Virus record (IMG/VR): IMGVR_UViG_3300017747_003095
From: an uncultured virus (IMG/VR IMGVR_UViG_3300017747_003095)
Lineage: Duplodnaviria; Heunggongvirae; Uroviricota; Caudoviricetes
Length of the DNA stretch: 20,000 nt
Reading direction: 5' to 3' (one strand)
The notes beneath the pieces are model-generated. The model was not told the DNA's origin. It was given only the letters and a program-made list of their open reading frames with translations, and ran no database searches. Shown here one piece after another: positions 1-14,311 of the stretch; position 1 is the first letter of the stretch, and the number at the start of each line of letters is the position of its first letter. The translations under genes were made by a program, and so were the position numbers.

Positions 1-1
1 A

Positions 2-1489
2 GCAGCGAAGCAGCTTTCTCAAAATCTAGCAGCCTGGAAAGCAGACAAGGCCCAAGCTAAAAAAGAAAAAGAAGCCAAGGCCTCTAAGGCCATGGACGAA
101 ATGATGAAGTTTGATCCATCTACTTTTAATAGAAAGATTAGAAGCGAGGCTACCGCTGGTTTCGAGAAGTCTAAAAAAGAACTTGAGAACGCAATAGAGG
201 CGGGCAAGAGCGAGAGAGAGCTTCTAGATATCGTTTATCAAGCTGGGAAGAATCTTGCTTCATATAAAGATCAGAGTAATAACAGGGACTTGCTAGATAA
301 ATATGTTTTAGCAAACCCAGGAAAAGCTCCGACTGTATTAACAAACTATTCTGCAAACAACAGAAGCAGACTCTCTGAAGATGAAATAGTTCTTTTGCAA
401 GGATTTGGTGTTGGTTACGATAGAGAAACAAATATTTTAACATCCTTTGGATATGAGCCTGTTGACGTAAGGGCGGCACTTAATCAAGCTAAACCAACAG
501 AGGATGAGCTACTTGCGACCACAAGTCAAGATGATATACAAAAAAATATATCCATCATCAAAACTAAAGCAGGATACGATCCGATAGCATTTGCAAGACT
601 AAAGCCACCCGAGCAGAGATATGCATTAAGCTTGGCTAATGTAATGTACAACGAGCCAGGAGCTATTGGGTCTATATCTGAAGAGGTTTTAAGAAAGGAT
701 TATGGAGGAAACTATGACAGATATCTCGTAGCAACAAGATCCAAGCTGGATGAAATGATGAAAAATACAAAGGAAGGAGATCCTCTTCCGACGCCTTTCG
801 ATGCACAGAGAGCTATCGCTATTGATTATATGGTCAAAACCCATGCTCCCGAATGGATACAGGCGTCTACAAAAACGATAAACTTAACCGAGCCCCCCAA
901 AGTTACTGATCCTAAAAATAAGGGAGCACAAGGAAATCCCGCAGCTGCTACTGCTGAAGGACATCTTTCGACAGCTGGAAAAAAGCTAGCAAAAAATCTA
1001 GGCATGGATGAACAGACGGCTATAAATATTTCTTTGAATAGGGTAGAGGCAACACCTGAACAGAGAAAGATAGCCAATAAAATAACTAAAAACAATATAC
1101 TTGGAGAAGGGCCAACGGTATCTTTCAATACAGGAGGCACAGAGGTAGTTACCATAGGATCTATAAATGTAAATCCAAGAAAACTCTGGTATGACACGAA
1201 GAATAAAAAGTTTCACCTCTCTTACGATAAGCAGGTCTCTGGAGAAGGGACTTCTTATAATCTAGCAGCAGAAGATAAGGTTCTTACATGGGAAGAATTA
1301 AAGCAGTTAGATAGCTCTGGTAACACTAATGTAAAAGCGCAATTGGAGCAATGGGATCTTAACGCAGCAGCGAACAAAGTTCCTACTGTCTCTAATTATA
1401 TTTTATCTAAAGGCACAGCTAGAGCAGCAGCAGCAGCGCCATCAGGATCAGGATCGGCCTCTTCATATAATTGGACTGGAGGTAAATAA
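2..1489 (+). CDS. 5'-truncated hypothetical phage protein (>=495 aa), probable internal virion/ejection (cargo) protein
   Basis: The frame is open from position 2 (AAKQLSQNLAAWKADKAQAKKEKEAKASKAM...) into the listed ATG at 92, so the true start probably lies upstream of the window. TAA at 1487-1489, 9 nt before the giant gene. Charged/helical N-part and low-complexity tail ARAAAAAPSGSGSASS. Function is inferred only from position next to the giant gene. Confidence 0.75.
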   Translation, partial: AAKQLSQNLAAWKADKAQAKKEKEAKASKAMDEMMKFDPSTFNRKIRSEATAGFEKSKKELENAIEAGKSERELLDIVYQAGKNLASYKDQSNNRDLLDKYVLANPGKAPTVLTNYSANNRSRLSEDEIVLLQGFGVGYDRETNILTSFGYEPVDVRAALNQAKPTEDELLATTSQDDIQKNISIIKTKAGYDPIAFARLKPPEQRYALSLANVMYNEPGAIGSISEEVLRKDYGGNYDRYLVATRSKLDEMMKNTKEGDPLPTPFDAQRAIAIDYMVKTHAPEWIQASTKTINLTEPPKVTDPKNKGAQGNPAAATAEGHLSTAGKKLAKNLGMDEQTAINISLNRVEATPEQRKIANKITKNNILGEGPTVSFNTGGTEVVTIGSINVNPRKLWYDTKNKKFHLSYDKQVSGEGTSYNLAAEDKVLTWEELKQLDSSGNTNVKAQLEQWDLNAAANKVPTVSNYILSKGTARAAAAAPSGSGSASSYNWTGGK

Positions 1490-1498
1490 CAAATCAAC

Positions 1499-4400
1499 AT
1501 GGACGAAAGAGCAATTGACGATTTATTTAATCATGCTAGGTCTTTAGGATATAAAGACTCTAGAGGCAACTTCCTTAATCTGATTTATACAGATCAGAGG
1601 GCGTTTAATGACATGTTCTCTTACGCTAAGTCTAAGGGATTTAATAAGAACGAGGATGATTTTTCGATTCTAATAGGAAAGAAACAAGGCTCGGGAAAAG
1701 CAGCCCCTGGAAGCGGAGCTGGGCCTTCTGGGGGATTAAGATTACCATCGAATCTAAATAAGCAGCAGGTAAAAAGCTTTCTGGGTAGGTATGGCGCATC
1801 TTTTACAGATGATCAATACGACCAGATAGCTAGTAGGGTGAAAGGTAAGTCGATGGAAGAGGCGATGCAAATCGCTAGAGAGATCACTACTCCGACACCA
1901 CAACCTGTACGGATGTCATCTCTTGATGCTGGAAGGCAAATGCTTGCATCCGCAGCAGAGCAAAGGACAGGCCTTGCTGAACAAGTACAGCAAGAAGAGC
2001 CGTCAACAAGTGGCTATCTTTCACCAGAGCAACTCCGACGCGCCGAAATGGAAGATGCTAGAATACCATCATCCACGCTGCCTACGCAAGGGCAGCTAAG
2101 GGCTGATTTCGCAACGCAATTTAGAAAAGAAGGAGAAGCAAATGCTGCTGATCTGGTTTCTAATTGGGACTCGGAAGGAAAGAAAAAAATGCTCGCAATC
2201 TATGCCGAAGAGGCTATGGAAAACGATAGCGACGAGCTAGACTTCGGCCCTTTTGGAACCGTTAAGATGGGCGAAACGCCAGAAGAGGTTCAAAGAAACT
2301 TAGATCAGCTTATAAGCATCCCGCAACTAGGGACTCTAAAGGCCGAATATGGATTTAGTACAAAACAAATTTATGATAAACTAAAGTCTGACCTTGGCTA
2401 TGAAAATGATAAGAAGTTTGAAGAAACCTTGCTTAAGTATTTTAAGTCAAACGAAGGTCTTAAATACGTAGTTGACGATAGTAAGCAAAAGCTAAGCATA
2501 TATAATCAACTGTACGAAGAGGCCCTGCAAAACCCAAACACACCCCAAGAGGATCTTGATGGCTTAAAGCAAATGATTAATAAAGAGCTCAAGATACAGG
2601 GCATGGGTGAGATTATAGATCAAGCTCAATATAATAGATTATCAATTGGTGAAAAGGCGCCAATAGCCTTGGCGTATGGAGGCAGCACACTTAGGTCACT
2701 TGCAAATTCGCTAGAGCTATCTCTTACAGAATTTACTGTTGGAGTTATGGAAGTCGTGTACGAGCCATTCCTAGCAGATGAACATCAAGGCATGGTTAGA
2801 GACCTTTTGATGTATCAACCATTGTCGGAAAAAAGAAAAGCTGCAGAAAAAACCGCAGAACTTCCCTATCAAAGCGTATCCTCTCAATCTGTTATAGATG
2901 GTCTCAATATACTTAATTTCACAACAACGGCAACGCAGGTCACTGGCTCTATAGCTGTGACTTACGCTGGAGGATTTATGGGAGGCGCTGCTTTAGTATA
3001 TGGTGACGCTGTAGATGAAGCCTTAAAAGGAGGTTATAGCCGAAACGAAGCTAAGGCTTACGGACTACTTAACGCAGGAATATCTGGATACCTTGAAAAA
3101 ATAGGTCTTAAAGGCATAACAAAAACGATTACCACAGACGCTGAGAGAAGATTAGTATTATCCGCTATAAGATCGGAGTTAAAGAAGGGAACAAGCGTAG
3201 ATAAAGTAGTCTCTATAGTCACAAATAAAATAGCTAATTCTATTGGATCTCTAGTTAAAGGTGGAACTCCAGAAGGCTTTACAGAGTTCGCTCAGACAGG
3301 CCAAGAGCTTCTATTGAAAAAGGCATTCAATAGAATGGTTTTAGATGAAGGAGAGAAGGGGTTTGAAGAACCATCACTAGACGAAGCTTCCAAGATGTTA
3401 GGCGAGGCGTTTGTTGTCGGATTTTTTAGTGGAGGATCCGTCCCGTCTCTTATATCAGCATTTTCAAAAGGAAACACCAAGTATGAAGATGTAGCTAATG
3501 CCGTAGTGGCTGGCAAGAAAAAGGTGTCTGATATCGTAGAGACAACAAAGGGTCTTATATTGTCTGGGAAGGTAAGCGCAGTTGATGGACGTGCATTTAT
3601 TGAAAATCTTAAGATAGCAGAAGCAGCAAAAGCTACGCTACCAACTTATGTGAAAGATAAGCAACAGCGCATCCGTGCCATATCACTTGTTATGGAGCGA
3701 AACAAGCTCACACAAGAAATGAATAGTGCAGATCCAGACCTTCAGGATGGGTATAAGAAAAGGCTAAATGAAATAAAGCAGGAGCTTAAATCTATCGCCG
3801 ACAAGAACTGGGTAGCGCCAACTAATGCATTCACTGCGTCGACATCGCCGGGCTTCTCTGCCGCGATGAGCGCATTGTCACAAGAGCCAGATACCGACAA
3901 GGCTGCAAGGGTTTTCAACAAGACTCTTGGCGTAAACAACGGACTTCTGACAAAGATAACGAAGGCGATGGAAGCTGGGACTGAGATAGCTACTCAATTA
4001 TCTAAAAACGTAGCTGCAGATCTTGAGATGTTTGTTGAAAAGTTGTCTAGCATGGACAACAAGACCCCTGCAATGCAGGAGGCGATAAAGTCAGCTACAG
4101 ACATCATCCAGAAGTTAAATGATTATGGCAACAAGCGAGATTCCGTGCCAAGTGAAGCAGGTGTAAGCCTGAATATGGATGAAATCATTGGAAGAATTGC
4201 CGCTGGCGCTGAAGCCGGAGACATGGACTTCATGGAAAATGTTCCAGAAGAAACATTAGATCAAGTCGCTACCACTCTTTCAGGAATAATGTCTGGTGCG
4301 GATGTGTCAGAGGAGGATGCAGGAGCTGCCGCAGATTTTCTATACGGCAGATATAAGCAGCTTACGGACCTAAAGGCAAAGATCAGTAAGAAAATAGAAA

Positions 4401-7400
4401 CAGAAAAGGATGCTACCAAAAAGACTAGGCTAGAAAAATCTTTATCTGCTATCAACGAGGCTCAGTCCAAGCTTGACCAGGACATAAGTGTCACTGTTAA
4501 GTACCAACAAGAGAAAGCCCTCCGTGATGAAGCTGCAGGTACAAGAAAGCAGGTGCCACTAGGAGAACCCCAAGCAGAGCGAAAGAGCGAGAAAGAAAGC
4601 GAGAAAGAGCTCCCGGGCAAGGTATCGCAAGAGTACAGTCCTGAAAACATGGACGCGATACAAGAGGAGTTCGAAGCTGAAAACGGTCGACTAGATCCGC
4701 TTATCATACGAGCAATCAACTCAGTAAACAAGCTACTTTCTAAGATAGCTCCTAACGTAAAGATATACGTACACACCTCTGTTGATGATTACGTTAAGAC
4801 GCTCGCAGAAGAAGGTCTAAGACCTGCTGATGTCGCTGGGGCTTCTAGGACCTACGGTAAGGTCGTTCAGGACGAAAATAAACGTATACAGTCGCTTCAT
4901 ATAAACCTTCAGCTTATAAACGACTCAGCTAATGCTGAAGAAGGCGTTAGAGGCATATACCACGAGGCTACTCACGTAATACTTGATGTATTCTTTAGGG
5001 CTAATCCAAAGATGATCGCTGATATGATCGACTCTATCAAGTCGTTTGTACCTAAGGGAGTATCTGAGCAATTGGATGAGTTTCTTGAAGAGTACGTGAA
5101 TGAAACTGACGAAATAAACGCCGAGGAGTACATATCCGAGTTGGTTGATATTCTCGCCAGAACAGAGAGTCAGCTTGATAAACCGACCATATCGAAGATA
5201 ATCGGTGCAATAAACGACGTTATACGCCGTGCTGCACGAGCCTTAAATATACAGGACCCAGAAAGGTTCCTTATCAAGAATGATCGCACCGACTTTATTG
5301 ACTTCTTAAACTCATTAGCTACCGCTACAACTAGTGGTCTTGAGTCGGATATTAAAAACAAAGAAAGACTACAGAAAAAGTATGCCGTTCAAAAGCAAAC
5401 AGCAGGTAAAGTACCTGTACAGCCAAGAGCCAGAGGTGGCCAAGAGGTGGCGGAAGGAGAACCCGAAGCAGAACCTGAAAACATTGCCGAAGAAGGCGAA
5501 ACCCAAGAGCGGACCAGCAAGTCAAGTAAAAAACGTAAGAAGAAAAAAGAAGTAGGAACAGAATTCTCTGATGCATCAAGTCCTCAGTTTAGTCTTAATT
5601 TGAATAAAAACCTTAGCGAGGACCAACAGAACTCCGTAGGGCAAATATTCGATCAGGTACTTAGTAATGATGATGCGACATTTAGTGAGACTGTAAATAT
5701 AGATGGATCTATTGGCAAAGACGTTCCTAAGCAGAAAATAGAAATAAGCGAATCTGACAACAGACCTGAAGCTGATTTTATGAGAAGGCTTAGGATTCCG
5801 CTTGATTTTATACTTGGGAAGTCTGTAGGATTAGGCATGTCTGACACTCTAACTACTGGCGAAAGAAATGTAGAGGTGCTTGATCTTAAAACAAATAAGA
5901 AGAGCAAGCAAAAAGTTAGGGACGAAGGTGGAATCGGATATCCATTTAAATCTCTTATGGACTTGCTTAATGGCAAGATCAAAAAAGGAGAAAAGATTTT
6001 CGGCTGGGCTTCGGTGAGTAAAGGCGCTGGAACAGGAATGATCACGGCTGCAAAAAAAGCATCAAAAATATCAGGCAGGGAATTAAAGGACATATACATA
6101 AGTAATCTAGGTCTTAATAAAGAGCAAATAAGTAGACTAGAAGATGCTATTCCAGACAATAAACAATATGGAATAGTTGCCATATATAAAATGGGTGCAG
6201 ATGGTATATATAGCAATGAAGCATATTCGAGAGAGGCCTTTAGACAGATTGAAACTCTGCTAGATCAGGATGAAAAGAATCAATTTTTTGTCCTAGCAAA
6301 GCAGCGTCTTAATGATTTAAAGTGGGAAAATAAATCAAGCTTTATTGGTTCAATTAATGCAGCCAATTCGTTTATAGAACTTGAGAATATTCTTCATGGA
6401 AGCGAGTCTAAAATGCCATTAAAGGCTAAGGCTAGTATAATGAAGAAAGTTTTTCTGTCATCAGAAGAAACGGAATCAAAAGGTAAATCGGGCAATAAAT
6501 TAGGTGAGCTATTAAAGAGTAAAGGAATTTCTATAGAAAGCGTAGCTAGAGCTATAGAAGAACCTGTTATGTCTGACCTTAGTAAGGGTCAGCCAGTGAT
6601 ACTTGTCGCTATAGATGGTAGTTCCAAAACAATAGAGGACAAGCTTCGGGAAAGACATAAGAACTACCCTTTTGGTGTAGAAGGATTTCCTATTGGAGTA
6701 TTTGAAGAAACAACTCAAATGCATCAGTTATCAACTGTTTTAATGGATGCGTTTGTCAAGTCATCTACAGTTATAGTTGATGAAAACGCTAAGTTTACAG
6801 ACCCTGCTAAACCAGGAGCTAAAGCTGAAGAAGCACGTGTCAGTATATATCAAGATTCTGAAGGTGATTTCCGTGCCGATAAAGGAAAGGGTGGAGATAA
6901 AGAAAGAATAAAAGACAGCAATGGAGATCCTGTAAAAGCTAAAACAAAGGATCTATTATTAAGCAAACTCAAGAAGCTAGGGTACGTCATTAGTAAAAGC
7001 ATAGCCCAGACAAGATATACTCAGGTTATTAATGGAAGTACATTTGGGGATGTAATGCAAAAGCTTAAGATTGGATTTACATCAATACTAGAAAGTCCAC
7101 AATTAACAGCTCAGCAGAAACTAGTAAAATATTTACAGTTAGCATTCCCTGGTATTGTTGTAGAAATGGACTCAGTAGAGTACGATAAAATACAGCAAGG
7201 CTTCGTAGATCAAAAGCTAATAAATAAAGACGGTAAGGTATATGGATTTGTAAAAGAAGGACGGGTGTATCTTAACCCTACTTACTTAAATAACAATACG
7301 CCAATACATGAATTTGGTCACGTATGGAATTTCGTGGCTAAGAATTTCAGACCAGAAATATATTCAAAAGGTGTTAGTCTAGTAGAGGGAAGTGAATATC

Positions 7401-10400
7401 AAGATTCTGTACTTCAAGATGTTAAGTATAGAAAATTGATAGAAGCAGAATTTGGAAGAAAGGCTCTCATTAAAGACAAGAAAACAGGTAAGTATGTTAT
7501 AAATAAGCAATTTGACAGGGCTAATGAAGTTGCTGATTCAGTTGCTGACGAAGCCTTGGCTAAGGCGATAGGCGATAAAGGAGAGTTGTTTGTTAACGAA
7601 GCACAAAAGCGCGATTTTAAAGACTGGCTTAATACGCTATACAAGGCAATAAAGAAGGTTATCGGATTTGGAGACATGACCGAGGACCAGTTCCAGAATT
7701 TAACATTAGATCAATTCGTTGACTCGGCTCTTAAAGAGATTCTAGGTGGCCAGGAAATAACCAAGGTAACTAGTAGTGAATTGGCTTCTGTGGGAAAAAC
7801 TTCAGCGAAGTTCCTGATTGCCGGGGAGAATGCTAATCTAGAGCAGAATGTATTAGGCAATTTGCGTGTTGCTAACGAAATGGAGGCAAGCAATCAAGAC
7901 GCTAAAACCATTCGCCTTGCAACGGGATGGGAAAGAGGTGCTGATGATAAATGGAGATACGAGGTTCAAGACAATATTCCTTTCTTAAAGGATACTGTTA
8001 AGCAGATGAAAGAGTTTTTATCTGAAAATGATGCTCAAAATACAAGCCAGAAGGCAAATTATTTTCTTCCAAAAGAGCTGTTAAAGCTTTATCCTGAATT
8101 GAATGATGTGACCATAGTCTTCAACGATAAATTCAATGACGATGAAGCTTCATACAATCCACGCACCAAAACTATTGAAGTAAACGTAGGCGTATATCCT
8201 AAGAATACAGTATCTGCATTGCTGCACGAGATACAGCATGTAATACAAGATATAGAGGGCTTCGCTAAGGGAGGTAATGTTGAGGAATTTTCTGACTTTA
8301 GAAACGAGCAAATTATTAATCAAGTTTCGTTTGAAAAAGAACAGCTAGAGAGGCAATATAAAAAACAGCCTTTATCAAGAGATATTATACTAGAGTTTGA
8401 TAACTACATAAATCAGAAAGATGGTATTACTAAAATGTATAATGAATTAAGTGATAAATACGACATTTCAGTAAAGTCAGTAAGAGATGCCGCTAATTAC
8501 CTATATGAATTGATAGGAGATGATCCTACGATGGATAATTATGTTAACAAGATTGCCTTTTTTAATGACGTAATATCTAGTAAAAACCCATTTAGGCAAT
8601 ATGAGAAATTAGCTGGAGAGGTAGAAGCTCGGAATGTACAGGCTCGTATGGAGATGACTCCCGAGCAACGTAGGGCAACTACTCTGCAGGAAACCGAAAG
8701 CGTACCAAGAGAAGAACAAACAGTAAGGGGTGTACTAACCTCAAAGTCATCGAAGGTAAGTTCTGCATTGGCAAATGTTAAGAATACGGCTAAGGCCCTG
8801 GAGGGGAAAAATACATTCGACCAGCAAGATGAAAAAGCAGAAGTTATAGTTGGTAAAGAAAAAGACAGATGGGGTCGTTCTCAAGTTTGGAGAGAAAGAA
8901 TAGAAAACGCAGGAGATATACTTAGGGAATTGTCAGGTAGAGGCAACAATCCTGATGTTAAATATTTACAAGAAAAAATAAATAAGATAAAGAATTGGAT
9001 TTTAGATGGAAGCGGATTTAGCGAACTACCAAAAAGCATTAAAACCTTAAAGGATGTTGATGAATCAAATGTTAGATTTTCTTCCGCTGTTGATGGGAAG
9101 AAATATTTAGATAAGTTTCATAATGATGTCTTACAAGAAACTATTGACGCTTATAAAGGTATTGTTGTAAAAACAGAAGAAGAGCAAGTTGTAAAAGATT
9201 TTATATTAACCTTACTACAAGGAGATAAATCATCTATATCTTCTAGCTTAAAAGAAGTTGAGGATATTGTTGGTAGAATAAAAAAACAAGGGGAATTAAA
9301 ATCAACTCCATTAAATGTTTCTGAAGCCTATCACGAAGCCAAGGCGGACGGAAGTAACCCTGAGTTAGTTGAAGCGGTAGAGGCGTTGCTTGGGGATCAG
9401 GAAGTAAAACCTGAATTAACCTCAAAATCTTCGAAGGCAAGTTCTGGACTAACATCAAAGTCATCAAAGTCCAAAGGCCCGCTAGGCTACGATCCGAACC
9501 AAGCGGCCGACAGAGGCACTAAACAAGATCGTGACCTACAGCAGAATATCTACGACTTGGCTCTTAGTATATGGGACTCGACAAAGGATCTCATGGATAT
9601 GACTGCTGATATCTACGTAGCAGTTAGCGACGAGTTAGACACGCCTCTTAATGCTGTGCACATAGCCGAGTTGATAAAAGACCTTCGCATTGGCAACAGA
9701 CCGGAATATACTAAAACACCAGAAGGCAAGTACAAGCGCAACAAAACGAAGCTAAATGTCAGCTCTGTAATGGACAGCGCTCTTGTGGCATTGAGCGGCC
9801 TTGTTACAAACAGAAGAGTGGATAAGGGTATTATCGCTAGTCTTATAAACTCCCTTAAAGGTGGACCTCAATATACCGTGGAAAATCAGATAGATGTAGA
9901 TGCTATAGCCGATACTCTTTTTGACATATTCGGTGACTCTGCTAATATTGCGACCTTACAGGAGCTTTACAAAATCGCAGAACTGGCTAAGGGTGGTTTG
10001 AGAACTACGATGTTTGCCAGAATCGCTAATAATTCATGGAACAAAGCAAGAGAGTCTAAGGATCAACAGGAGAAGCTGGCGTATAGAGATCTTGGGAATA
10101 TGGCCTTGAATCAATTAGCTCAAGAAGCTACTGAGTCAGGAAGGTTTAATGCTATGATCTACAGGATCCAGAAGCTCAACCCAGAATTCCTTGCCTCTTT
10201 CGAGAAGTCAAGGGTTAGGCGAGAGACTGAATCGCAAATGAGAGGGGCGGGCCAGAAGAAGTCAGATGTGGATTCTGTCACAACAGAACTCAACACGGCT
10301 CAGGAGCAGGCAGCTGAACAGGCTGTTAACTCACCGTCTGTACAAGCGGCTATCAATACCGCTACTGGCGTCCCTCCGGGACCTAGTACACCTCCTCCTG

Positions 10401-13400
10401 CGCCAAAACCAAAACCAGCCGGACCAAAACCAGGCGGACCAAAACCTCCTGCGCCAAAGCCAACAGGCCCTCCTGTTAGTGAGGCTGCAAGTAAAGCGGC
10501 TGATGCTAGGATCAAAGACCTGAAAGGGAAGCTAAAGAACCTCTTCTCTGGTAAAACTTCGAAGTCAGCGAGAGCAATCCCTGCAGGTATGAATCCAGAA
10601 ATTCTGGATATCATCACAGAGCTTGCTAGGAATTACATCGTAAAAGGATTCACGGATAGGACGGCGTTGATTTCAAAGATCAATGGTGACATAACCGCTG
10701 CAGGTGGGTCTGTGACAATGGACTACTTCACAGAGATGTGGAACGAGGTTCAGGTTGAGGCTGTTCAGCAAAGGAACACTATAGCTGCAAATTCTCTAGC
10801 GAACAGAATCGTCGGCAAGGTAAAGAGTACAATTAGGGAGTCTACCAAGACGTTTGATCCAATCGATGAGTTAATAACAAATCTTGTTAATAAGGCGACA
10901 GAAGATGTTAAAACGCCAAAGAAAGCCAAGGAGTCTCCACTAGAAATAATCAAGAGACTGGTAGTAGAATACGATACAGCCAAAAAGATCTGGGAGGCTT
11001 CAAAAGCAAATGTCAAAGCGAAGATTGACCTACTAGACCCTGCTAAGTTCACTCCTGCAGAGAAGCAGGCTATGAAAGACAAGCTGAATTCTTTCTTTGA
11101 GAATGATCTAAGCTACTTCGAGATCAAGAAAACACCTACAGCATCTCCTAATGCGACAGTCAGAAATGTTATCAAGCAGGAGATGAAAGAGAAGAAGCTC
11201 AAGATTGAGGAGATTTTGCTGATGGCTACTTCGAAGCAGGCTAAAACCAAGGAGGAGTTCATTCAGAATATTGTAGATGATATTGTTAACTCAACTGGCA
11301 TATCCTATAGCGATGCAATCAGAATCGCCGAGGACTTCGCTAACAAATACGATCAAATTGTAAGCAAGAAGCAGGAGTCTATCCTTAAGAGGTTTTCTAA
11401 CTCTATCAGGGTAAGGAACATTAAGAAAAAGTCTCAGGGCCAACGTGCTTTTGAGATGATTAAGTACGGCGTAATAGATCCATCCATTAAGATCCATGAT
11501 AAAAATGGAGATATTATAGACTCGGCAATGCTTTTAGCTGAGTTATTCGGCGTTCCATATATTGATGAGGAGACGAGAAATGAGCTAGACAAGTTTGCAG
11601 AGGAGATCGCAGCTGCTCCTGAGGGCGTTATCCGTCAGCAGGTTATCAATGAAATGATGATGTTTATGAAGATGCATCAGTTCATACAGTTAGGGTCGCT
11701 AGGAACTCGTATTATGACTCAGTTCTACGCCAACATACTTACCAGCGGTGATACGCTCTTGAAGGCCTTTAACTCGAACATTGTAATGAATCCGTTTGAG
11801 TTTCTGACCATAGCCACAAGGGCTGCAATAAAGCGTGACTTTGCTTTAATACCTCTCCTTACAAAAGGTTACTATCAGAAGAAAGGCGTAGGCTCAATAA
11901 AAGAGTTAAAAGCTGATCGACCGCTGAGGGATATTGATGGGTATGTAATCAACCAAGGCGAGACATACTACCTATTCAGTGACAAAAATATAATGAGCCA
12001 AGCGAATCCAAGGGCAGCTGCGCTTAGCGGTCACTACCAAGGGCTTCTTCAATACAGCACCTCAATTAACCAAGCTAGAGCGGTGCTAGGAGGTCTTATC
12101 GAGCATGAAAACTATACCGACAATATCACAGGTGCTGTTTATGCAAAATACGGAAGAACAAAAGCAGGTAGGGCATGGGGTAGGTATGTGACAGCCGCTC
12201 AGAAGGGTCTTGGGGCAATAGACGTACTATTGACAGCAGGTGCTACCGGAGCTAGATACAGTGACTTATTGTATGACGCAATCAGGTTCTATGCTAAGTC
12301 AAAAGGAGAGAAAATAAAGGGCTCTGAGATTGTTAAGATCATAAACCTTTTGCAGGGATACTCTCCAATGGTCCAGTTAGATGCTTACAATCAAGCAATA
12401 GCCGAGATGCAGGGCCTTGAAAACGGCCGTCTTGATCTATCTGATAAAAAGAAAAAGACATTACTTCTACTAAGGGTTGAGGATATTGTCAGACAGAAAA
12501 TGTCAGACAGATACCAGCAAGCTGTTAATGCAAGTCCTTGGTTAGCGGGACTTAGTCAGCAAGAGATCGCCGACCTGCTCGACGGAGCAAAAGACATTAC
12601 AACCAAGATCGGATTAATGGGCACTCCTCCTGGGACAGGCGGGGTATTGTCTCACTATTTAGCAATCCCTGGAAGAGCCTTTAGGTTCTCTAATATGCAA
12701 GTGGGCGCATTCGTAAAAGCGCCTATTAACGGCGCTATGTTCCTTGTGCAAGGAAACACGCCGCTTGCAGCTATTATGACAGGCGTAAGGCTACTGAAGA
12801 GTCAACGGGGCTTTGGTTTAGGATCTAATGAGTTCTTTAAGAAGGAAGGTATCAGGACTAGCATGTACGGAAAGACCAGATATTCTAGACAATTGGGTAA
12901 AAATGCATCGTTAATATGGAACCTAGAAAAGGAGGATTTGCTAGTTAAGTTTGCCTTGATACAAACTGCAGCTATATCATTGACTTTTATGTCGACTAAT
13001 GCAGTCATCGTAGGTCTTGCGTCTATGTTTGATGATGACGACGAGGGCAGAAAAAAGAGAGATCTACTGCTTAAGGATGGACTTGAATACTTGAAAAAGA
13101 TTCCACAAAATGAAAGGGAGTTAATGTTCTTTGGGGACATATTATCCCCTGATAAAAAGAAAAGAGAAGGTATATGGAAGCAGCTTCCGTTCTATACTAC
13201 TGGTTCAATGTATGGATACCAGGCCGGAGGTTACGGAAAGATGCAAAGTCTTAAGGCTAGATACGGAATTGAGCCACATACCGCCTATTCTTATGGAGTA
13301 AAATTATTTACATACAAGGACAATCCTTTACTGGGGGCCTTCTTTATGGAGATGGCTGCGTCAACGGATGCGATACTATTCAACGAGTCCGCAAATCTTG

Positions 13401-14311
13401 AGGACAATCAGTTAGGTTTGGTTCTGATGTCAACTTGGGCTCAAATGAACTTATTTAGAGATCAAGCTAGTTTAAAAAGTATCTCTGAAATCACAGAGGC
13501 ATTTGCAGGGCAAAGGGCTTACGAAGGTCTAGATAGTCCGCTTCAAAGGCTTGAGATGTACGGAGGTAAATCAATTGGAAATCTTGTATCAAACCTAACT
13601 ATGCCAGCCGCGATGAAGAACATTAACCAAGACGTAATGGCGATGCTAGGTCAGCATATGGATGACCCAAAGACCTTTAAGGAGTTTGTTGTATATAGAT
13701 GGCCGATCATCGGAAGTGTTGTTATAGAAGGCGAAAAGACAGGTCCGTTTGGATATCCAGTCAAGACTCAACCTAAGCGAGTGTTCCCAATCATAGCTGA
13801 GCCATTTAAGTTGCCTTTGATGCTAGACGGAAGTATAGACTTGCCTACTGTAGATCAGCTGCTTTCGACAGAGGATGCTAAGTACACCGCCTTGTTCGTA
13901 AGAAACAATAACGATAAATTTCTCAACCCTGAGATATCTGGGTATTACAAGGCGGATAAATACGGTGACTTCGAAAGGAAGACCTTTTCTTTGGAACAGA
14001 GGAAGAAAATCAAAGAAGAGTACAAGCTCTTAATGAGAGAATTCGCTGAACAGAATATTAACGTAGTTCAATCTCCTAAAGAATTTAATACTAATCTAAA
14101 GCTATTCTTAAGTTTATACGGAGCAGAAATGGGCAAAAATACAGTTACTACTGTAGGTTATAAGCGATACATCATCAACAAGGTAATGGGTGCCGAGGCG
14201 AAAGATATACTTCTCGATGAAGCGGATGGCTTTTACAATATGGGCAAAGATGAGTTGACTCTTGACAAGATCAAAAAGACCGAAGAAGGATTTGTGCCGC
14301 TAGAAAGGTAG
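1499..14311 (+). CDS. Giant (4270 aa) large polyvalent-type virion/ejection protein with three HExxH metallopeptidase-like modules and an LPD23-like domain
   Basis: Uninterrupted 12.8-kb ORF, ATG after A-rich aacaaatcaac, TAG stop. Motifs: HEATH (4961), TPIHEFGH (H at 7307), LLHEIQH (H at 8225) ... AGEVEARNVQ (G at 8615), and IRLATGWERGADDKWRYE (LPD23-like, ~7910-7963). Architecture fits the polyvalent proteins described by Iyer et al. 2017. Confidence 0.85.
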   Translation: MDERAIDDLFNHARSLGYKDSRGNFLNLIYTDQRAFNDMFSYAKSKGFNKNEDDFSILIGKKQGSGKAAPGSGAGPSGGLRLPSNLNKQQVKSFLGRYGASFTDDQYDQIASRVKGKSMEEAMQIAREITTPTPQPVRMSSLDAGRQMLASAAEQRTGLAEQVQQEEPSTSGYLSPEQLRRAEMEDARIPSSTLPTQGQLRADFATQFRKEGEANAADLVSNWDSEGKKKMLAIYAEEAMENDSDELDFGPFGTVKMGETPEEVQRNLDQLISIPQLGTLKAEYGFSTKQIYDKLKSDLGYENDKKFEETLLKYFKSNEGLKYVVDDSKQKLSIYNQLYEEALQNPNTPQEDLDGLKQMINKELKIQGMGEIIDQAQYNRLSIGEKAPIALAYGGSTLRSLANSLELSLTEFTVGVMEVVYEPFLADEHQGMVRDLLMYQPLSEKRKAAEKTAELPYQSVSSQSVIDGLNILNFTTTATQVTGSIAVTYAGGFMGGAALVYGDAVDEALKGGYSRNEAKAYGLLNAGISGYLEKIGLKGITKTITTDAERRLVLSAIRSELKKGTSVDKVVSIVTNKIANSIGSLVKGGTPEGFTEFAQTGQELLLKKAFNRMVLDEGEKGFEEPSLDEASKMLGEAFVVGFFSGGSVPSLISAFSKGNTKYEDVANAVVAGKKKVSDIVETTKGLILSGKVSAVDGRAFIENLKIAEAAKATLPTYVKDKQQRIRAISLVMERNKLTQEMNSADPDLQDGYKKRLNEIKQELKSIADKNWVAPTNAFTASTSPGFSAAMSALSQEPDTDKAARVFNKTLGVNNGLLTKITKAMEAGTEIATQLSKNVAADLEMFVEKLSSMDNKTPAMQEAIKSATDIIQKLNDYGNKRDSVPSEAGVSLNMDEIIGRIAAGAEAGDMDFMENVPEETLDQVATTLSGIMSGADVSEEDAGAAADFLYGRYKQLTDLKAKISKKIETEKDATKKTRLEKSLSAINEAQSKLDQDISVTVKYQQEKALRDEAAGTRKQVPLGEPQAERKSEKESEKELPGKVSQEYSPENMDAIQEEFEAENGRLDPLIIRAINSVNKLLSKIAPNVKIYVHTSVDDYVKTLAEEGLRPADVAGASRTYGKVVQDENKRIQSLHINLQLINDSANAEEGVRGIYHEATHVILDVFFRANPKMIADMIDSIKSFVPKGVSEQLDEFLEEYVNETDEINAEEYISELVDILARTESQLDKPTISKIIGAINDVIRRAARALNIQDPERFLIKNDRTDFIDFLNSLATATTSGLESDIKNKERLQKKYAVQKQTAGKVPVQPRARGGQEVAEGEPEAEPENIAEEGETQERTSKSSKKRKKKKEVGTEFSDASSPQFSLNLNKNLSEDQQNSVGQIFDQVLSNDDATFSETVNIDGSIGKDVPKQKIEISESDNRPEADFMRRLRIPLDFILGKSVGLGMSDTLTTGERNVEVLDLKTNKKSKQKVRDEGGIGYPFKSLMDLLNGKIKKGEKIFGWASVSKGAGTGMITAAKKASKISGRELKDIYISNLGLNKEQISRLEDAIPDNKQYGIVAIYKMGADGIYSNEAYSREAFRQIETLLDQDEKNQFFVLAKQRLNDLKWENKSSFIGSINAANSFIELENILHGSESKMPLKAKASIMKKVFLSSEETESKGKSGNKLGELLKSKGISIESVARAIEEPVMSDLSKGQPVILVAIDGSSKTIEDKLRERHKNYPFGVEGFPIGVFEETTQMHQLSTVLMDAFVKSSTVIVDENAKFTDPAKPGAKAEEARVSIYQDSEGDFRADKGKGGDKERIKDSNGDPVKAKTKDLLLSKLKKLGYVISKSIAQTRYTQVINGSTFGDVMQKLKIGFTSILESPQLTAQQKLVKYLQLAFPGIVVEMDSVEYDKIQQGFVDQKLINKDGKVYGFVKEGRVYLNPTYLNNNTPIHEFGHVWNFVAKNFRPEIYSKGVSLVEGSEYQDSVLQDVKYRKLIEAEFGRKALIKDKKTGKYVINKQFDRANEVADSVADEALAKAIGDKGELFVNEAQKRDFKDWLNTLYKAIKKVIGFGDMTEDQFQNLTLDQFVDSALKEILGGQEITKVTSSELASVGKTSAKFLIAGENANLEQNVLGNLRVANEMEASNQDAKTIRLATGWERGADDKWRYEVQDNIPFLKDTVKQMKEFLSENDAQNTSQKANYFLPKELLKLYPELNDVTIVFNDKFNDDEASYNPRTKTIEVNVGVYPKNTVSALLHEIQHVIQDIEGFAKGGNVEEFSDFRNEQIINQVSFEKEQLERQYKKQPLSRDIILEFDNYINQKDGITKMYNELSDKYDISVKSVRDAANYLYELIGDDPTMDNYVNKIAFFNDVISSKNPFRQYEKLAGEVEARNVQARMEMTPEQRRATTLQETESVPREEQTVRGVLTSKSSKVSSALANVKNTAKALEGKNTFDQQDEKAEVIVGKEKDRWGRSQVWRERIENAGDILRELSGRGNNPDVKYLQEKINKIKNWILDGSGFSELPKSIKTLKDVDESNVRFSSAVDGKKYLDKFHNDVLQETIDAYKGIVVKTEEEQVVKDFILTLLQGDKSSISSSLKEVEDIVGRIKKQGELKSTPLNVSEAYHEAKADGSNPELVEAVEALLGDQEVKPELTSKSSKASSGLTSKSSKSKGPLGYDPNQAADRGTKQDRDLQQNIYDLALSIWDSTKDLMDMTADIYVAVSDELDTPLNAVHIAELIKDLRIGNRPEYTKTPEGKYKRNKTKLNVSSVMDSALVALSGLVTNRRVDKGIIASLINSLKGGPQYTVENQIDVDAIADTLFDIFGDSANIATLQELYKIAELAKGGLRTTMFARIANNSWNKARESKDQQEKLAYRDLGNMALNQLAQEATESGRFNAMIYRIQKLNPEFLASFEKSRVRRETESQMRGAGQKKSDVDSVTTELNTAQEQAAEQAVNSPSVQAAINTATGVPPGPSTPPPAPKPKPAGPKPGGPKPPAPKPTGPPVSEAASKAADARIKDLKGKLKNLFSGKTSKSARAIPAGMNPEILDIITELARNYIVKGFTDRTALISKINGDITAAGGSVTMDYFTEMWNEVQVEAVQQRNTIAANSLANRIVGKVKSTIRESTKTFDPIDELITNLVNKATEDVKTPKKAKESPLEIIKRLVVEYDTAKKIWEASKANVKAKIDLLDPAKFTPAEKQAMKDKLNSFFENDLSYFEIKKTPTASPNATVRNVIKQEMKEKKLKIEEILLMATSKQAKTKEEFIQNIVDDIVNSTGISYSDAIRIAEDFANKYDQIVSKKQESILKRFSNSIRVRNIKKKSQGQRAFEMIKYGVIDPSIKIHDKNGDIIDSAMLLAELFGVPYIDEETRNELDKFAEEIAAAPEGVIRQQVINEMMMFMKMHQFIQLGSLGTRIMTQFYANILTSGDTLLKAFNSNIVMNPFEFLTIATRAAIKRDFALIPLLTKGYYQKKGVGSIKELKADRPLRDIDGYVINQGETYYLFSDKNIMSQANPRAAALSGHYQGLLQYSTSINQARAVLGGLIEHENYTDNITGAVYAKYGRTKAGRAWGRYVTAAQKGLGAIDVLLTAGATGARYSDLLYDAIRFYAKSKGEKIKGSEIVKIINLLQGYSPMVQLDAYNQAIAEMQGLENGRLDLSDKKKKTLLLLRVEDIVRQKMSDRYQQAVNASPWLAGLSQQEIADLLDGAKDITTKIGLMGTPPGTGGVLSHYLAIPGRAFRFSNMQVGAFVKAPINGAMFLVQGNTPLAAIMTGVRLLKSQRGFGLGSNEFFKKEGIRTSMYGKTRYSRQLGKNASLIWNLEKEDLLVKFALIQTAAISLTFMSTNAVIVGLASMFDDDDEGRKKRDLLLKDGLEYLKKIPQNERELMFFGDILSPDKKKREGIWKQLPFYTTGSMYGYQAGGYGKMQSLKARYGIEPHTAYSYGVKLFTYKDNPLLGAFFMEMAASTDAILFNESANLEDNQLGLVLMSTWAQMNLFRDQASLKSISEITEAFAGQRAYEGLDSPLQRLEMYGGKSIGNLVSNLTMPAAMKNINQDVMAMLGQHMDDPKTFKEFVVYRWPIIGSVVIEGEKTGPFGYPVKTQPKRVFPIIAEPFKLPLMLDGSIDLPTVDQLLSTEDAKYTALFVRNNNDKFLNPEISGYYKADKYGDFERKTFSLEQRKKIKEEYKLLMREFAEQNINVVQSPKEFNTNLKLFLSLYGAEMGKNTVTTVGYKRYIINKVMGAEAKDILLDEADGFYNMGKDELTLDKIKKTEEGFVPLER
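1502..1678 (+). repeat. Two-copy 30-aa N-terminal repeat of the giant protein
   Basis: DERAIDDLFNHARSLGYKDSRGNFLNLI aligns with DQRAFNDMFSYAKSKGFNKNEDDFSILI at an exact 30-residue period. Confidence 0.75.
4700..5330 (+). other. Zincin-like metallopeptidase module 1 within the giant protein
   Basis: SLHINL strand, then GIYHEATHVIL (HExxH at 4961-4975), then NAEEYISEL (candidate third ligand Glu) about 50 aa later. Boundaries approximate. Confidence 0.6.
5382..5555 (+). CDS. Small basic 57-aa protein nested in the +1 frame of the giant gene (candidate overprinted gene)
   Basis: ATG at 5382 after A-rich acagaaaaagt (A at -3), TAG at 5553-5555. Translation MPFKSKQQVKYLYSQEPEVAKRWRKENPKQNLKTLPKKAKPKSGPASQVKNVRRKKK resembles, from my recall, small stand-alone phage proteins of the form MPFKSxxQx(R/K)YxYxxxPE(I/V)AKRW...LP. 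The ORF track starts it earlier, at 5334. Confidence 0.6.
   Translation: MPFKSKQQVKYLYSQEPEVAKRWRKENPKQNLKTLPKKAKPKSGPASQVKNVRRKKK
7110..7760 (+). other. Zincin-like metallopeptidase module 2 within the giant protein (polyvalent-protein MPTase type)
   Basis: VYGFVKEGRVYLNP...NTPIHEFGHVW (HExxH at 7307-7321), then DEALAKAIGDKG and FKDWLNTLYKAIKKVIG. Boundaries approximate. Confidence 0.7.
7811..8730 (+). other. LPD23-like domain followed by metallopeptidase module 3
   Basis: FLIAGENA...ANEMEA...TIRLATGWERGADDKWRYEV...LLKLYPEL...ALLHEIQHVIQDIEGFAKGGN...YEKLAGEVEARNVQARM, matching my recall of the LPD23 + HExxH/GEVEAR arrangement in polyvalent proteins. Confidence 0.75.
8736..9446 (+). repeat. 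~30-nt imperfect direct repeat pair (8736-8765 and 9417-9446), both encoding (L)TSKSSK(V/A)SS
   Basis: taacctcaaagtcatcgaaggtaagttctg vs taacctcaaaatcttcgaaggcaagttctg, 27/30 identical. A third, shorter copy follows immediately (ctaacatcaaagtcatcaaag, 9449-9469). Confidence 0.85.
10373..10474 (+). repeat. Pro/Lys/Gly-rich low-complexity linker with short internal repeats
   Basis: PPGPSTPPPAPKPKPAGPKPGGPKPPAPKPTGPP; nucleotide repeats cctcctgcgccaaa x2 and ggaccaaaacc x2. Confidence 0.85.

What the first reader, a model, noticed from the sequence alone, without database searches (positions are those of the whole stretch)
5382..5555. Overprinted gene inside the giant gene: basic 57-aa MPFKS... 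protein in the +1 frame of an acidic linker
Seen: the DNA encoding the linker YAVQKQTAGKVPVQPRARGGQEVAEGEPEAEPENIAEEGETQERTSKSSK also reads, one base shifted, MPFKSKQQVKYLYSQEPEVAKRWRKENPKQNLKTLPKKAKPKSGPASQVKNVRRKKK*. It has an ATG with an A-rich, A(-3) leader like the real genes here, a protein-like aromatic core (F, Y, Y, W) and a Lys/Arg tail. GC in 5401-5520 is ~55% by hand count, above flanking samples (~44% at 4621-4920, ~33% at 6061-6360), as might be expected under dual constraint. From memory, not a search, MPFKSxxQ..Y.Y...PE.AKRW...LP occurs as stand-alone small phage genes, and AIQKQ...VPVQ...GQEV.EGEP linkers recur in giant phage proteins. That would mean the conserved linker is really the shadow of this hidden gene. 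Inference: a small basic, possibly DNA-binding/condensing virion protein translated from within the cargo gene, which standard annotation would miss.
Basis: partly seen in the sequence, partly recalled or inferred. Interest (0 to 1): 0.88.

Follow-up and report, generated by a model that had tools for sequence, protein, structure and literature searches.

The report
Conserved small gene inside giant gene
A 57-codon gene for a tiny basic phage protein is written one base out of frame inside a 4270-codon phage gene, and comparison with hundreds of phages shows that evolution preserves the small protein, so the giant protein's "linker" is only its by-product.

Summary
Window 5382-5555 (+) is an ATG-started 57-codon ORF in the +1 frame of a 4270-codon gene (1499-14311). 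ORF length alone is unremarkable, but the peptide belongs to a large uncharacterised family of small phage proteins. Family members occur free-standing next to portal, terminase or scaffold genes, as N-terminal domains of longer proteins, or nested. Nested copies are always +1, inside giant virion genes or inside unrelated ~400-aa scaffold-position genes. Substitutions follow the small frame: pN/pS is 0.30 there against 1.55 in the giant frame. ATG precedes PFKS in 80 of 80 loci found with a pattern that lacked the ATG. Among loci chosen through a neighbouring gene, 47 of 49 giant genes carry the nested ORF. In freshwater metagenomes, DNA from other phages piles up exactly on 5382-~5496. The start has an A-rich, weakly folded leader with A at -3. 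Nested copies also show giant-frame constraints: no stops, T-poor and G-rich third positions, and raised GC. I conclude it is a real embedded gene, and the older of the two frames. Translation is not demonstrated and function is unknown; I infer a head-assembly role. Cultured Flavobacterium phages (Elemovirus) carry it unannotated.

The parts
5382..5555 (+). Nested small gene: 57 codons plus TAG stop, in the +1 frame of the giant gene. The family core is codons 1-39 (5382-5498). Codons 40-57 are a basic tail that is longer here than in most relatives (41-52 codons).
   Evidence: AlphaFold2 on a 62-sequence alignment gives mean pLDDT 84, with helices at residues 6-15 and 17-26 and a low-confidence tail.
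5352..5381 (+). Putative internal translation-initiation region: A-rich, weakly structured leader with A at -3.
   Evidence: A fraction 0.60 over -20..-1, with 6 of 257 internal ATGs as high. MFE of -30..+30 is -3.1 kcal/mol against a giant-gene mean of -9.26 (sd 3.64), and 4.2% of windows are as weak. Real gene starts in the window give 0 to -6.7.
1499..14311 (+). Host giant gene, 4270 codons, a polyvalent-type virion gene. Pfam LPD23 matches residues 2108-2159, followed by a sub-threshold zincin-like match at 2200-2256.
   Evidence: Relatives' giant genes sit at the end of a block of virion structural genes.
5381..5557 (+). The giant-frame reading of the same DNA: an acidic, E/P/Q/A/V-rich linker (giant residues 1295-1353), the 'shadow' of the small gene.
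   Evidence: 46-66% identity in eight short linker-only matches among 34 relatives' giant proteins; the -1 frame of nested copies is 23% Glu.
5513..5530 (+). TSKSSK motif in the giant frame, overlapped by the tail of the small gene. The motif recurs at giant residues 2414, 2641 and 2652, with a variant at 3020, and no alternative-frame ORF lies at those places.
   Evidence: A 30-35-residue stretch around residues 2598-2637 is 48-58% identical in five relatives.

Best explanation
Window 5382-5555 is a genuine protein-coding gene embedded in the +1 frame of the giant virion gene. Its product is a ~40-residue two-helix hairpin with a lysine-rich tail, from a widespread, uncharacterised family of small phage proteins. 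I infer that ribosomes start on the giant gene's mRNA at the internal ATG. That ATG is preceded by an unstructured A-rich leader with A at -3, the kind of signal Bacteroidota-type ribosomes use in place of a Shine-Dalgarno sequence. The giant gene reads the same DNA one base earlier, as a disordered acidic linker. The small gene is the older partner. Elsewhere it stands free beside portal, terminase and scaffold genes or forms the N-terminus of scaffold-like proteins. Giant genes, and separately ~400-aa genes in the scaffold position, have grown across it in the one frame that can be kept open. Shown here: homology, frame-specific purifying selection, start and stop conservation, initiation-like signals, and dual-coding signatures. 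Inferred: that the protein is made, and that it works in head assembly or virion loading, for example as a portal-, scaffold- or capsid-targeting module with a basic tail. I give that role about 0.35.
For: (1) Homology. One search found 29 small proteins, all containing MPFKS; 28 start with it. Ten columns are invariant over 30 sequences. One search gave 72 representatives at E<=1e-3, most matching from residue 1.
(2) Layouts, for 80 loci plus the window: 32 nested in giant ORFs, 18 nested in ~385-450-aa ORFs, 27 free-standing, 4 as N-terminal domains.
(3) Selection. For 31 distinct giant-nested copies, codons 1-29, pairwise differences at small-frame positions 1/2/3 are 0.252/0.182/0.418. pN/pS is 0.30 in the small frame and 1.55 in the giant frame; free-standing copies give 0.31. 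The pattern holds outside the ascertainment pattern (codons 14-29, n=17: 0.381/0.203/0.446).
(4) Independent DNA evidence. Contigs of other phages in four freshwater metagenome runs cover 5382-~5496 at summed depths of 27-3117, against 0-27 in the flanks. At least 29 contig ends diverge exactly before 5382. Of 18 variable places in the ORF, 11 are small-frame third positions, 5 are first and 2 are second.
(5) Start codon. ATG precedes PFKS in 80 of 80 loci found with a DNA pattern that did not include the ATG, and the small frame is closed 0-77 codons upstream.
(6) Ascertainment-free test. Loci were chosen by the upstream neighbour gene. Of 49 that show >=1200 aa of the giant ORF, 47 carry the nested ORF, and all 52 nested copies seen are in frame +1.
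(7) Initiation signals. Leader A fraction is 0.55-0.58 against 0.35-0.40 in the host-gene background. A at -3 occurs in 21 of 32 and 38 of 48. The start is less folded than the host mean in 44 of 45 nested loci. A at -3 is a positive determinant in Flavobacterium johnsoniae (PMC6847099, abstract read).
(8) Dual coding. Nested copies (n=92) have GC 0.468 against 0.356 in flanks, higher in 92 of 92. Their third positions are 3.3% T and 53.9% G. Free-standing copies (n=26) have 23.4% T and 28.5% G, with GC above the flanks in only 5 of 26. Free-standing copies carry a mean of 3.6 stops in the -1 frame.
(9) Synteny. L038 reads portal - small gene - scaffold - major head protein. The mid class reads TerL - portal - host gene with nested copy - capsid-like protein. 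L071 and L047 have TerL directly before the small gene.
Against: There is no evidence of expression: no RNA run holds the stretch, and no proteome or ribosome-profiling data were reachable. The window's own peptide matches no Pfam or PHROG model and gave no tblastn hit at 1e-3 in cultured phages; a family member had to be used to reach Elemovirus, at weak E-values of 0.2-0.9. Two of 49 giant genes lack the nested ORF with no remnant, so it is dispensable in some phages. Three loci (two distinct sequences) have TAG at codon 30. One predicted protein, P0033, carries the peptide in frame at its C-terminus. The loci compared are phylogenetically related, so the Wilcoxon p-value and the counts are not independent trials. 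Standard pN/pS is biased in overlapping frames. The structure search found only family members and no solved fold, so the proposed function rests on gene order and fusions alone.
Confidence: 0.85

Rival explanations
1. The small-frame peptide is not a separate protein. It is reached by programmed frameshifting in one of two ways. Either a +1 shift from the giant frame gives a truncated giant protein with an MPFKS tail, or initiation at 5382 is followed by a -1 shift in the lysine-rich tail, which would fuse the peptide to the downstream ~2900 residues.
For: The window has A_AAA_AAG in the small frame just before its stop (sequence). P0033 is a 1075-aa predicted protein with the peptide in frame at its C-terminus. 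In-frame N-terminal fusions to long proteins exist: P0087 at 1014 aa, P0067 at 851 aa and L070 at 610 aa.
Against: The ends of the other 31 giant-nested copies mostly read AAG AAG TAG/TAA without a canonical X_XXY_YYZ heptamer, and the DNA just upstream of the ATG is not conserved. The ATG is invariant (80 of 80), which a shift from the giant frame would not require. The small frame is closed a few codons upstream. Relatives of P0033 (66-86% identical; L206, L208) have the ordinary out-of-frame layout with a stop 5 codons before the ATG. Free-standing copies have the same basic tail with nothing to shift into.
Confidence: 0.06
2. The stretch is a mobile or recombining cassette that moves between phage genes and is merely tolerated. 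Its spread, rather than a function of the nested protein, would explain the island of similarity.
For: It sits in unrelated host genes: 0 BLASTP hits between 18 mid and 34 giant hosts with the shadow masked. It lies at variable positions (host residue 500-1126). In seven loci it lies on the other side of a shared domain compared with the window. The DNA similarity island starts exactly at the ATG. A hidden out-of-frame homing endonuclease inside a phage gene has been described (PMC11855218; search listing and abstract only).
Against: About 45 residues hold no nuclease or recombinase domain. Copies differ at most synonymous sites (80-89% DNA identity, changes at third positions), which indicates long purifying selection and not recent transfer. 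Sequence subfamilies track their genomic contexts. Mobility would in any case not remove the need for the frame to be coding.
Confidence: 0.05
3. The nested copy is a relic of a fused gene, or a by-product of selection on the giant protein's linker or on an RNA or DNA element, and is no longer translated.
For: No expression data exist. Two of 49 giant genes lack it. Three loci carry an internal TAG.
Against: The giant frame's third positions are the least variable and its first positions the most variable, the reverse of what selection on the linker would give. The three-base periodicity is in register with the small frame. ATG and stop are kept in all nested copies examined. pN/pS is equal in nested and free-standing copies (0.30 against 0.31).
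Confidence: 0.03
4. It is a chance open frame in low-complexity DNA.
For: Other +1-frame ORFs of 85 and 57 codons exist in the same gene and look like off-frame noise.
Against: All the homology and selection evidence above.
Confidence: 0.01

Closest known systems
Embedded same-strand phage genes: lambda Rz1 inside Rz (+1 frame), and phiX174 B inside A and E inside D (named from my own knowledge; PMC5295617 on Rz/Rz1 seen in a search listing only)
   Same: A small gene lies wholly inside a larger one on the same strand in a shifted frame, presumably with its own internal start, and is conserved across relatives.
   Different: Here the embedded gene is the older, widely free-standing one, and the enclosing frame is the younger reading, a linker. 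The hosts are 2000-4000-codon virion genes or scaffold-position genes. The same small gene is embedded in at least two unrelated host gene families. No functional pairing of the two products is known.
phrog_1375 (PHROGs family of small phage proteins, function unknown)
   Same: 30 of 62 family members match it, best E 3.4e-7. Those members align with the window's peptide over its first ~40 residues.
   Different: The window's own peptide does not reach the model even at E<=1. PHROGs records no function and no nested layout.
Overprinting with disorder in one frame, as reviewed for viral overlapping genes (PMC8227390 and PMC6195259, abstracts seen in the listing)
   Same: One frame encodes a structured protein and the other a compositionally biased, probably disordered segment.
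   Different: Classical overprinting creates a new gene inside an old one. Here an old small gene seems to have been overrun by the growth or fusion of larger genes.
Pfam DUF3008 (PF11450)
   Same: It is the nearest named cluster by language-model features (score 0.84, a lead only). From memory, it shares a similar MP.KS..Q start.
   Different: None of 62 family members matches it at E<=10. I do not file the gene there.

Membership tests
MPFKS small-protein family (includes phrog_1375) | Significant sequence similarity to family members over the N-terminal ~40 residues | tested here: met
   best E 3e-14; 20 of 29 at E<=1e-3; 72 at E<=1e-3. Invariant M1 P2 F3 K4 S5 Q8 L12 S14 P17 A20 in 30 sequences.
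MPFKS small-protein family (includes phrog_1375) | Direct match of the window's peptide to the PHROG profile | tested here: not met
   0 families at E<=1. Membership therefore rests on similarity to members, 30 of 62 of which match phrog_1375.
MPFKS small-protein family (includes phrog_1375) | Small size, family motif at the very N-terminus, basic C-terminal tail | tested here: met
   57 residues, starting at M1, with a Lys/Arg tail. Relatives are 34-84 residues.
Embedded overlapping gene (Rz1-in-Rz type layout) | Wholly inside a longer ORF, same strand, shifted frame | tested here: met
   All 52 nested copies in the neighbour-anchored set are +1.
Embedded overlapping gene (Rz1-in-Rz type layout) | Purifying selection acting on the embedded frame | tested here: met
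Embedded overlapping gene (Rz1-in-Rz type layout) | Both products are made | not testable with these tools
   No RNA holder was listed, and no proteomics were reachable.
Programmed ribosomal frameshift site | Conserved slippery heptamer at the frame junction | tested here: not met
   the window has A_AAA_AAG, but the ends and upstream flanks of the other 31 giant-nested copies show no conserved heptamer.
Pfam DUF3008 | Match to the Pfam model | tested here: not met
   0 of 62 members at E<=10; none for the window's peptide.

The most novel reading that the evidence does not exclude
The small protein is an ancient head-assembly adaptor: a portal-, scaffold- or capsid-targeting hairpin with a DNA- or acid-binding tail. 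It is needed in trans to load the giant cargo protein or to nucleate the procapsid. Phage lineages have repeatedly let scaffold and giant cargo genes grow across it, so that one mRNA delivers both partners. Conserved 'linkers' in giant phage proteins would then be a general sign of hidden, older genes, and gene engulfment a route by which polyvalent giant genes are assembled.
Probability: 0.2. Interest if true: 0.85.

Novelty: new variant of a known kind. Interest (0 to 1): 0.7.

Why it matters
Standard gene callers forbid genes inside genes, so this protein is missing from the annotation of cultured phages that carry it. In Elemovirus the match lies under one 3694-codon 'structural protein'. 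Yet it is among the most conserved coding stretches of these genomes, up to 97% identical over 31 residues between phages whose giant proteins are 23-35% alike. The case shows that a conserved 'linker' can be the shadow of a hidden gene. It gives an unusually clean example of an old gene overrun by a younger frame. It also supplies a cultured phage-host pair in which a start-codon change that is silent in the giant frame can test the function directly.

Tried and rejected
- Pfam, PHROGs and PDB sequence searches with the window's peptide or the family profile gave no family or structure, apart from phrog_1375 for members.
- tblastn of the window's peptide against cultured phages found nothing at 1e-3. 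A free-standing member was used instead.
- Relatives of the giant protein's flanks were sought. The downstream 301 residues gave none and the upstream 251 residues gave two at 30% identity, neither with a family motif in the 6.7 kb fetched.
- No whole genome is held for the window.
- The window's neighbour genes have no tblastn match in cultured phages and almost no PHROG or Pfam match.
- No RNA holder was listed for the stretch, so expression could not be examined. The runs laid were DNA contigs only.
- P0033 was not found in viral contigs. Relatives were found in metagenome contigs.
- Fold searches against PDB gave nothing at E<=0.001. Against BFVD only uncharacterised family members appeared.
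- Paper searches for the motif, phrog_1375, polyvalent proteins with overlapping genes, embedded genes and nested small phage genes found no description of this family. One motif hit was a chance C-terminal string. The polyvalent-protein paper has no occurrence of 'overlapping', 'frameshift' or 'linker' in its main text. PMC7077304 does not cover the elemo phages.
- The other long +1-frame ORFs of the giant gene look like off-frame noise and were not searched.
- No complex prediction was run, because the report claims no specific binding partner.
Full report
**What is there.** Window 5382-5555 (+) is an ATG-started ORF of 57 codons ending in TAG. It lies in the +1 frame of a 4270-codon ORF, 1499-14311. 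That giant ORF reads the same DNA as an acidic Glu/Pro/Gln/Ala-rich linker (its residues ~1295-1353). The giant protein has a Pfam LPD23 domain (E 6.7e-13) and a sub-threshold zincin-like match, so it is a polyvalent-type phage protein.

The ORF as a whole has GC 0.483 against 0.413 for the giant gene. ORF length is not itself remarkable, because the same frame holds an 85-codon and another 57-codon ATG ORF whose translations look like off-frame noise.

**The peptide belongs to a real protein family.** A word-indexed search of 5.8 billion proteins returned 29 small proteins of 42-62 residues. All contain MPFKS (28 start with it), and 20 have E<=1e-3, the best at 3e-14. Ten columns are invariant over 30 sequences, and the substitutions elsewhere are conservative. 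An exhaustive HMMER search of 1.84 billion representatives gave 72 hits at E<=1e-3, mostly 43-100 residues matching from residue 1. A few longer proteins carry the motif at their N-terminus, and one (P0033) carries it at its C-terminus.

No Pfam model matches the peptide or any of 62 members consistently. No solved structure matches the family profile. phrog_1375, of unknown function, matches 30 of 62 members but not the window's peptide itself. AlphaFold2 on the 62-sequence alignment gives a confident two-helix hairpin (helices 6-15 and 17-26, pLDDT about 89-96 over residues 1-40) with a low-confidence basic tail. Fold searches found only uncharacterised family members in BFVD and nothing in the PDB.

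**Four layouts of the same gene.** Among the best 80 loci plus the window:
- 32 copies are nested in ORFs of 762 to more than 3100 codons (many cut by the locus ends).
- 18 are nested near the 5' end of ~385-450-codon ORFs.
- 27 are free-standing.
- 4 are N-terminal domains of longer proteins.

Every nested copy has the same frame relation to its host (+1). With the shadow masked, the 18 mid-size hosts share no BLASTP hit at E<=1e-4 with the 34 giant hosts, so at least two unrelated gene families enclose the same small gene. One of the 18, L075, looks like a chance open frame in high-GC DNA rather than a real host gene.

Gene order ties the family to head assembly:
- Free-standing copies lie between portal and scaffold (L038, followed by the major head protein), or directly after the large terminase (L071, L047).
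- The mid-size hosts sit between the portal and a capsid-like structural protein, which is the scaffold position, and have very acidic N-termini.
- One in-frame fusion, P0038, continues into a long, highly charged Lys/Glu-rich segment that looks like a scaffold protein to my eye; this was not tested.
- The giant hosts end a block of virion structural genes.

Cultured phages carry the nested form unannotated. Flavobacterium phages of the genus Elemovirus (68 records) and an uncultured podovirus genome have it inside 3694- and 3859-codon genes. The tblastn support for these matches is weak (E 0.2-0.9), but the ORFs read as clear family members with a Cys-containing insertion. Gordonia phages have a distant 46-residue version between the two terminase genes.

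**Selection follows the small frame.** For 31 distinct giant-nested copies, codons 1-29, mean pairwise differences at small-frame codon positions 1, 2 and 3 are 0.252, 0.182 and 0.418. The giant frame's third position, which is small-frame position 2, is the least variable. pN/pS is 0.30 in the small frame and 1.55 in the giant frame, and free-standing copies give 0.31. Those loci had been chosen by similarity to the peptide, so I removed that bias in three ways.
- A DNA pattern for PFKSK.Q..[YF]L without the start codon found 80 loci, and ATG directly precedes it in 80 of 80. The codons outside the pattern (14-29) keep the same ranking (0.381/0.203/0.446 for 17 giant-nested copies).
- I picked 80 loci through the neighbouring upstream gene (phrog_35506-like). 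Of the 49 that show at least 1200 residues of the downstream giant ORF, 47 carry a family ORF (HMM E<=1e-3), always in frame +1, at host residues 500-1126. Two carry none, and no remnant is detectable in them.
- I laid contigs from four freshwater metagenome runs on 5000-6000. Pieces from other phages (80-89% identical) pile up on 5382-~5496 at summed depths of 27-3117, against 0-27 in the flanks. At least 29 contig ends diverge exactly before 5382, into A-rich sequence. Of 18 variable places inside the ORF, 11 are small-frame third positions, including eight consecutive codons; 5 are first positions and 2 are second.

**The giant frame leaves its own marks.** Nested copies (n=92 distinct) have GC 0.468 against 0.356 in their flanks, higher in 92 of 92. 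Free-standing copies (n=26) have 0.389 against 0.422, higher in only 5 of 26. Small-frame third positions are 3.3% T and 53.9% G when nested, against 23.4% and 28.5% when free. Lys codons are 70% AAG against 43%. The resulting giant-frame peptide is 23% Glu. Free-standing copies carry on average 3.6 stops in that frame. Both frames are therefore maintained: the small one for its amino-acid sequence, and the giant one for openness and for small or acidic residues.

Between giant proteins that are otherwise 23-35% identical, with domains in a different order, this linker is among the best-conserved stretches. It was found in 10 of 34 hosts; eight of those are short matches confined to the linker, at 46-66% identity. 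In seven loci a domain that lies upstream of the small gene in the window lies downstream of it.

**How it probably works.** The nested ATG has the features of a start site in organisms that do not use Shine-Dalgarno pairing.
- The A fraction in -20..-1 is 0.60, reached by only 6 of 257 ATGs inside the giant gene.
- There is an A at -3.
- Folding energy for -30..+30 is -3.1 kcal/mol against a gene-wide mean of -9.26, within the range of the window's real gene starts.
- Across nested loci, the leader A fraction is 0.55-0.58 against 0.35-0.40 background. A at -3 occurs in 21 of 32 and 38 of 48 copies. The start is less folded than the host-gene mean in 44 of 45 loci. These loci are related, so the counts are not independent.

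Adenine at -3 and weak structure are positive determinants of initiation in Flavobacterium johnsoniae (PMC6847099, abstract). Cultured relatives infect Flavobacterium. The host of this window's phage is not known; the phage occurs in freshwater metagenomes, and run X1 holds identical pieces but may be the source sample. I infer internal initiation on the giant mRNA yielding the free 57-residue protein. Its role, a head-assembly or virion-loading adaptor with a basic tail, rests only on gene order and fusions.

**Rivals.**
- Frameshifting is suggested by the window's A_AAA_AAG before the stop and by P0033. However, no heptamer is conserved among the other nested copies, the ATG is invariant, and relatives of P0033 have the ordinary out-of-frame layout.
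- A mobile-cassette origin is compatible with the variable positions and unrelated hosts. It is not supported by any enzymatic domain, and the near-saturated synonymous differences point to long purifying selection and not recent transfer.
- A relic, or selection on the linker itself, is contradicted by the position-specific pattern.

**Novelty.** Embedded same-strand genes are known in phages. This case differs in four ways: the embedded gene is the older and widely free-standing one; the hosts are giant virion genes and scaffold-position genes; it recurs in hundreds of contigs; and it is absent from annotation.

My paper searches found no description of it. The library lacks most subscription journals, and I saw no supplementary files. 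I treat that note as a lead that my own tests agree with, not as independent evidence.

Noticed in passing
window 5513-5530, 8738-8755, 9419-9436, 9452-9469, 10556-10573: A giant-frame motif (L)TSKSSK recurs at giant residues 1339, 2414, 2641 and 2652, with a variant KTSKSAR at 3020. No open alternative frame lies at these places. The stretch around residues 2598-2637 is 48-58% identical in five relatives' giant proteins. These may be processing sites or module boundaries.
   Followed up: partly
L213 13887-, L230 13561-, L224 13166-: In three loci (two distinct sequences) the nested gene has TAG at codon 30, where the family has Gln (CAG). The small-frame codons after it remain family-like and differ by synonymous changes. 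All long + strand ORFs in L213 and L224 end in TAA (9 of 9 and 10 of 10). This may be TAG read-through or recoding, or a tolerated truncation.
   Followed up: partly
protein P0033 (no locus): This 1075-residue predicted protein has the family peptide in frame at its C-terminus. Its relatives L206 and L208 have the normal out-of-frame nesting. It is probably an indel or a gene-calling effect, but its contig could not be fetched.
   Followed up: partly
L081 9001-9129; L083 9001-9132; many of L239-L288: A subfamily of the nested gene, found in Elemovirus and relatives, has an insertion with two cysteines (ACY..NPKWDC), and some members have N in place of S at residue 5.
   Followed up: no
L070 6001-7833; L061 6001-6132 and 6623-6955: The family motif is fused to a protein with a DUF6321 domain in L070. 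In L061 it lies about 500 bases upstream of a separate DUF6321-like gene (phrog_4689). This is a possible functional link.
   Followed up: no
protein P0036 (729 aa): Five tandem repeats match only residues 10-40 of the small protein (sequence). It may be a distant repeated version of the second helix, or a chance compositional match.
   Followed up: no
window 10266-10523 and 1926-2099 (+): Two other long +1-frame ATG ORFs (85 and 57 codons) lie inside the giant gene. The first overlies the Pro-rich low-complexity segment. Their Leu/Arg/Gln-rich translations look like off-frame noise.
   Followed up: no
loci L003, L007 and others, 1-4200; L081, L083: A conserved gene order precedes the giant gene: phrog_38031/18548, then phrog_17252 (~136 aa), then phrog_13764 (virion structural), then phrog_35506 (~450-610 aa), then the giant gene. 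The window's 5'-cut upstream ORF (2-1489) is in the place of the phrog_35506-like gene but matched no model.
   Followed up: partly
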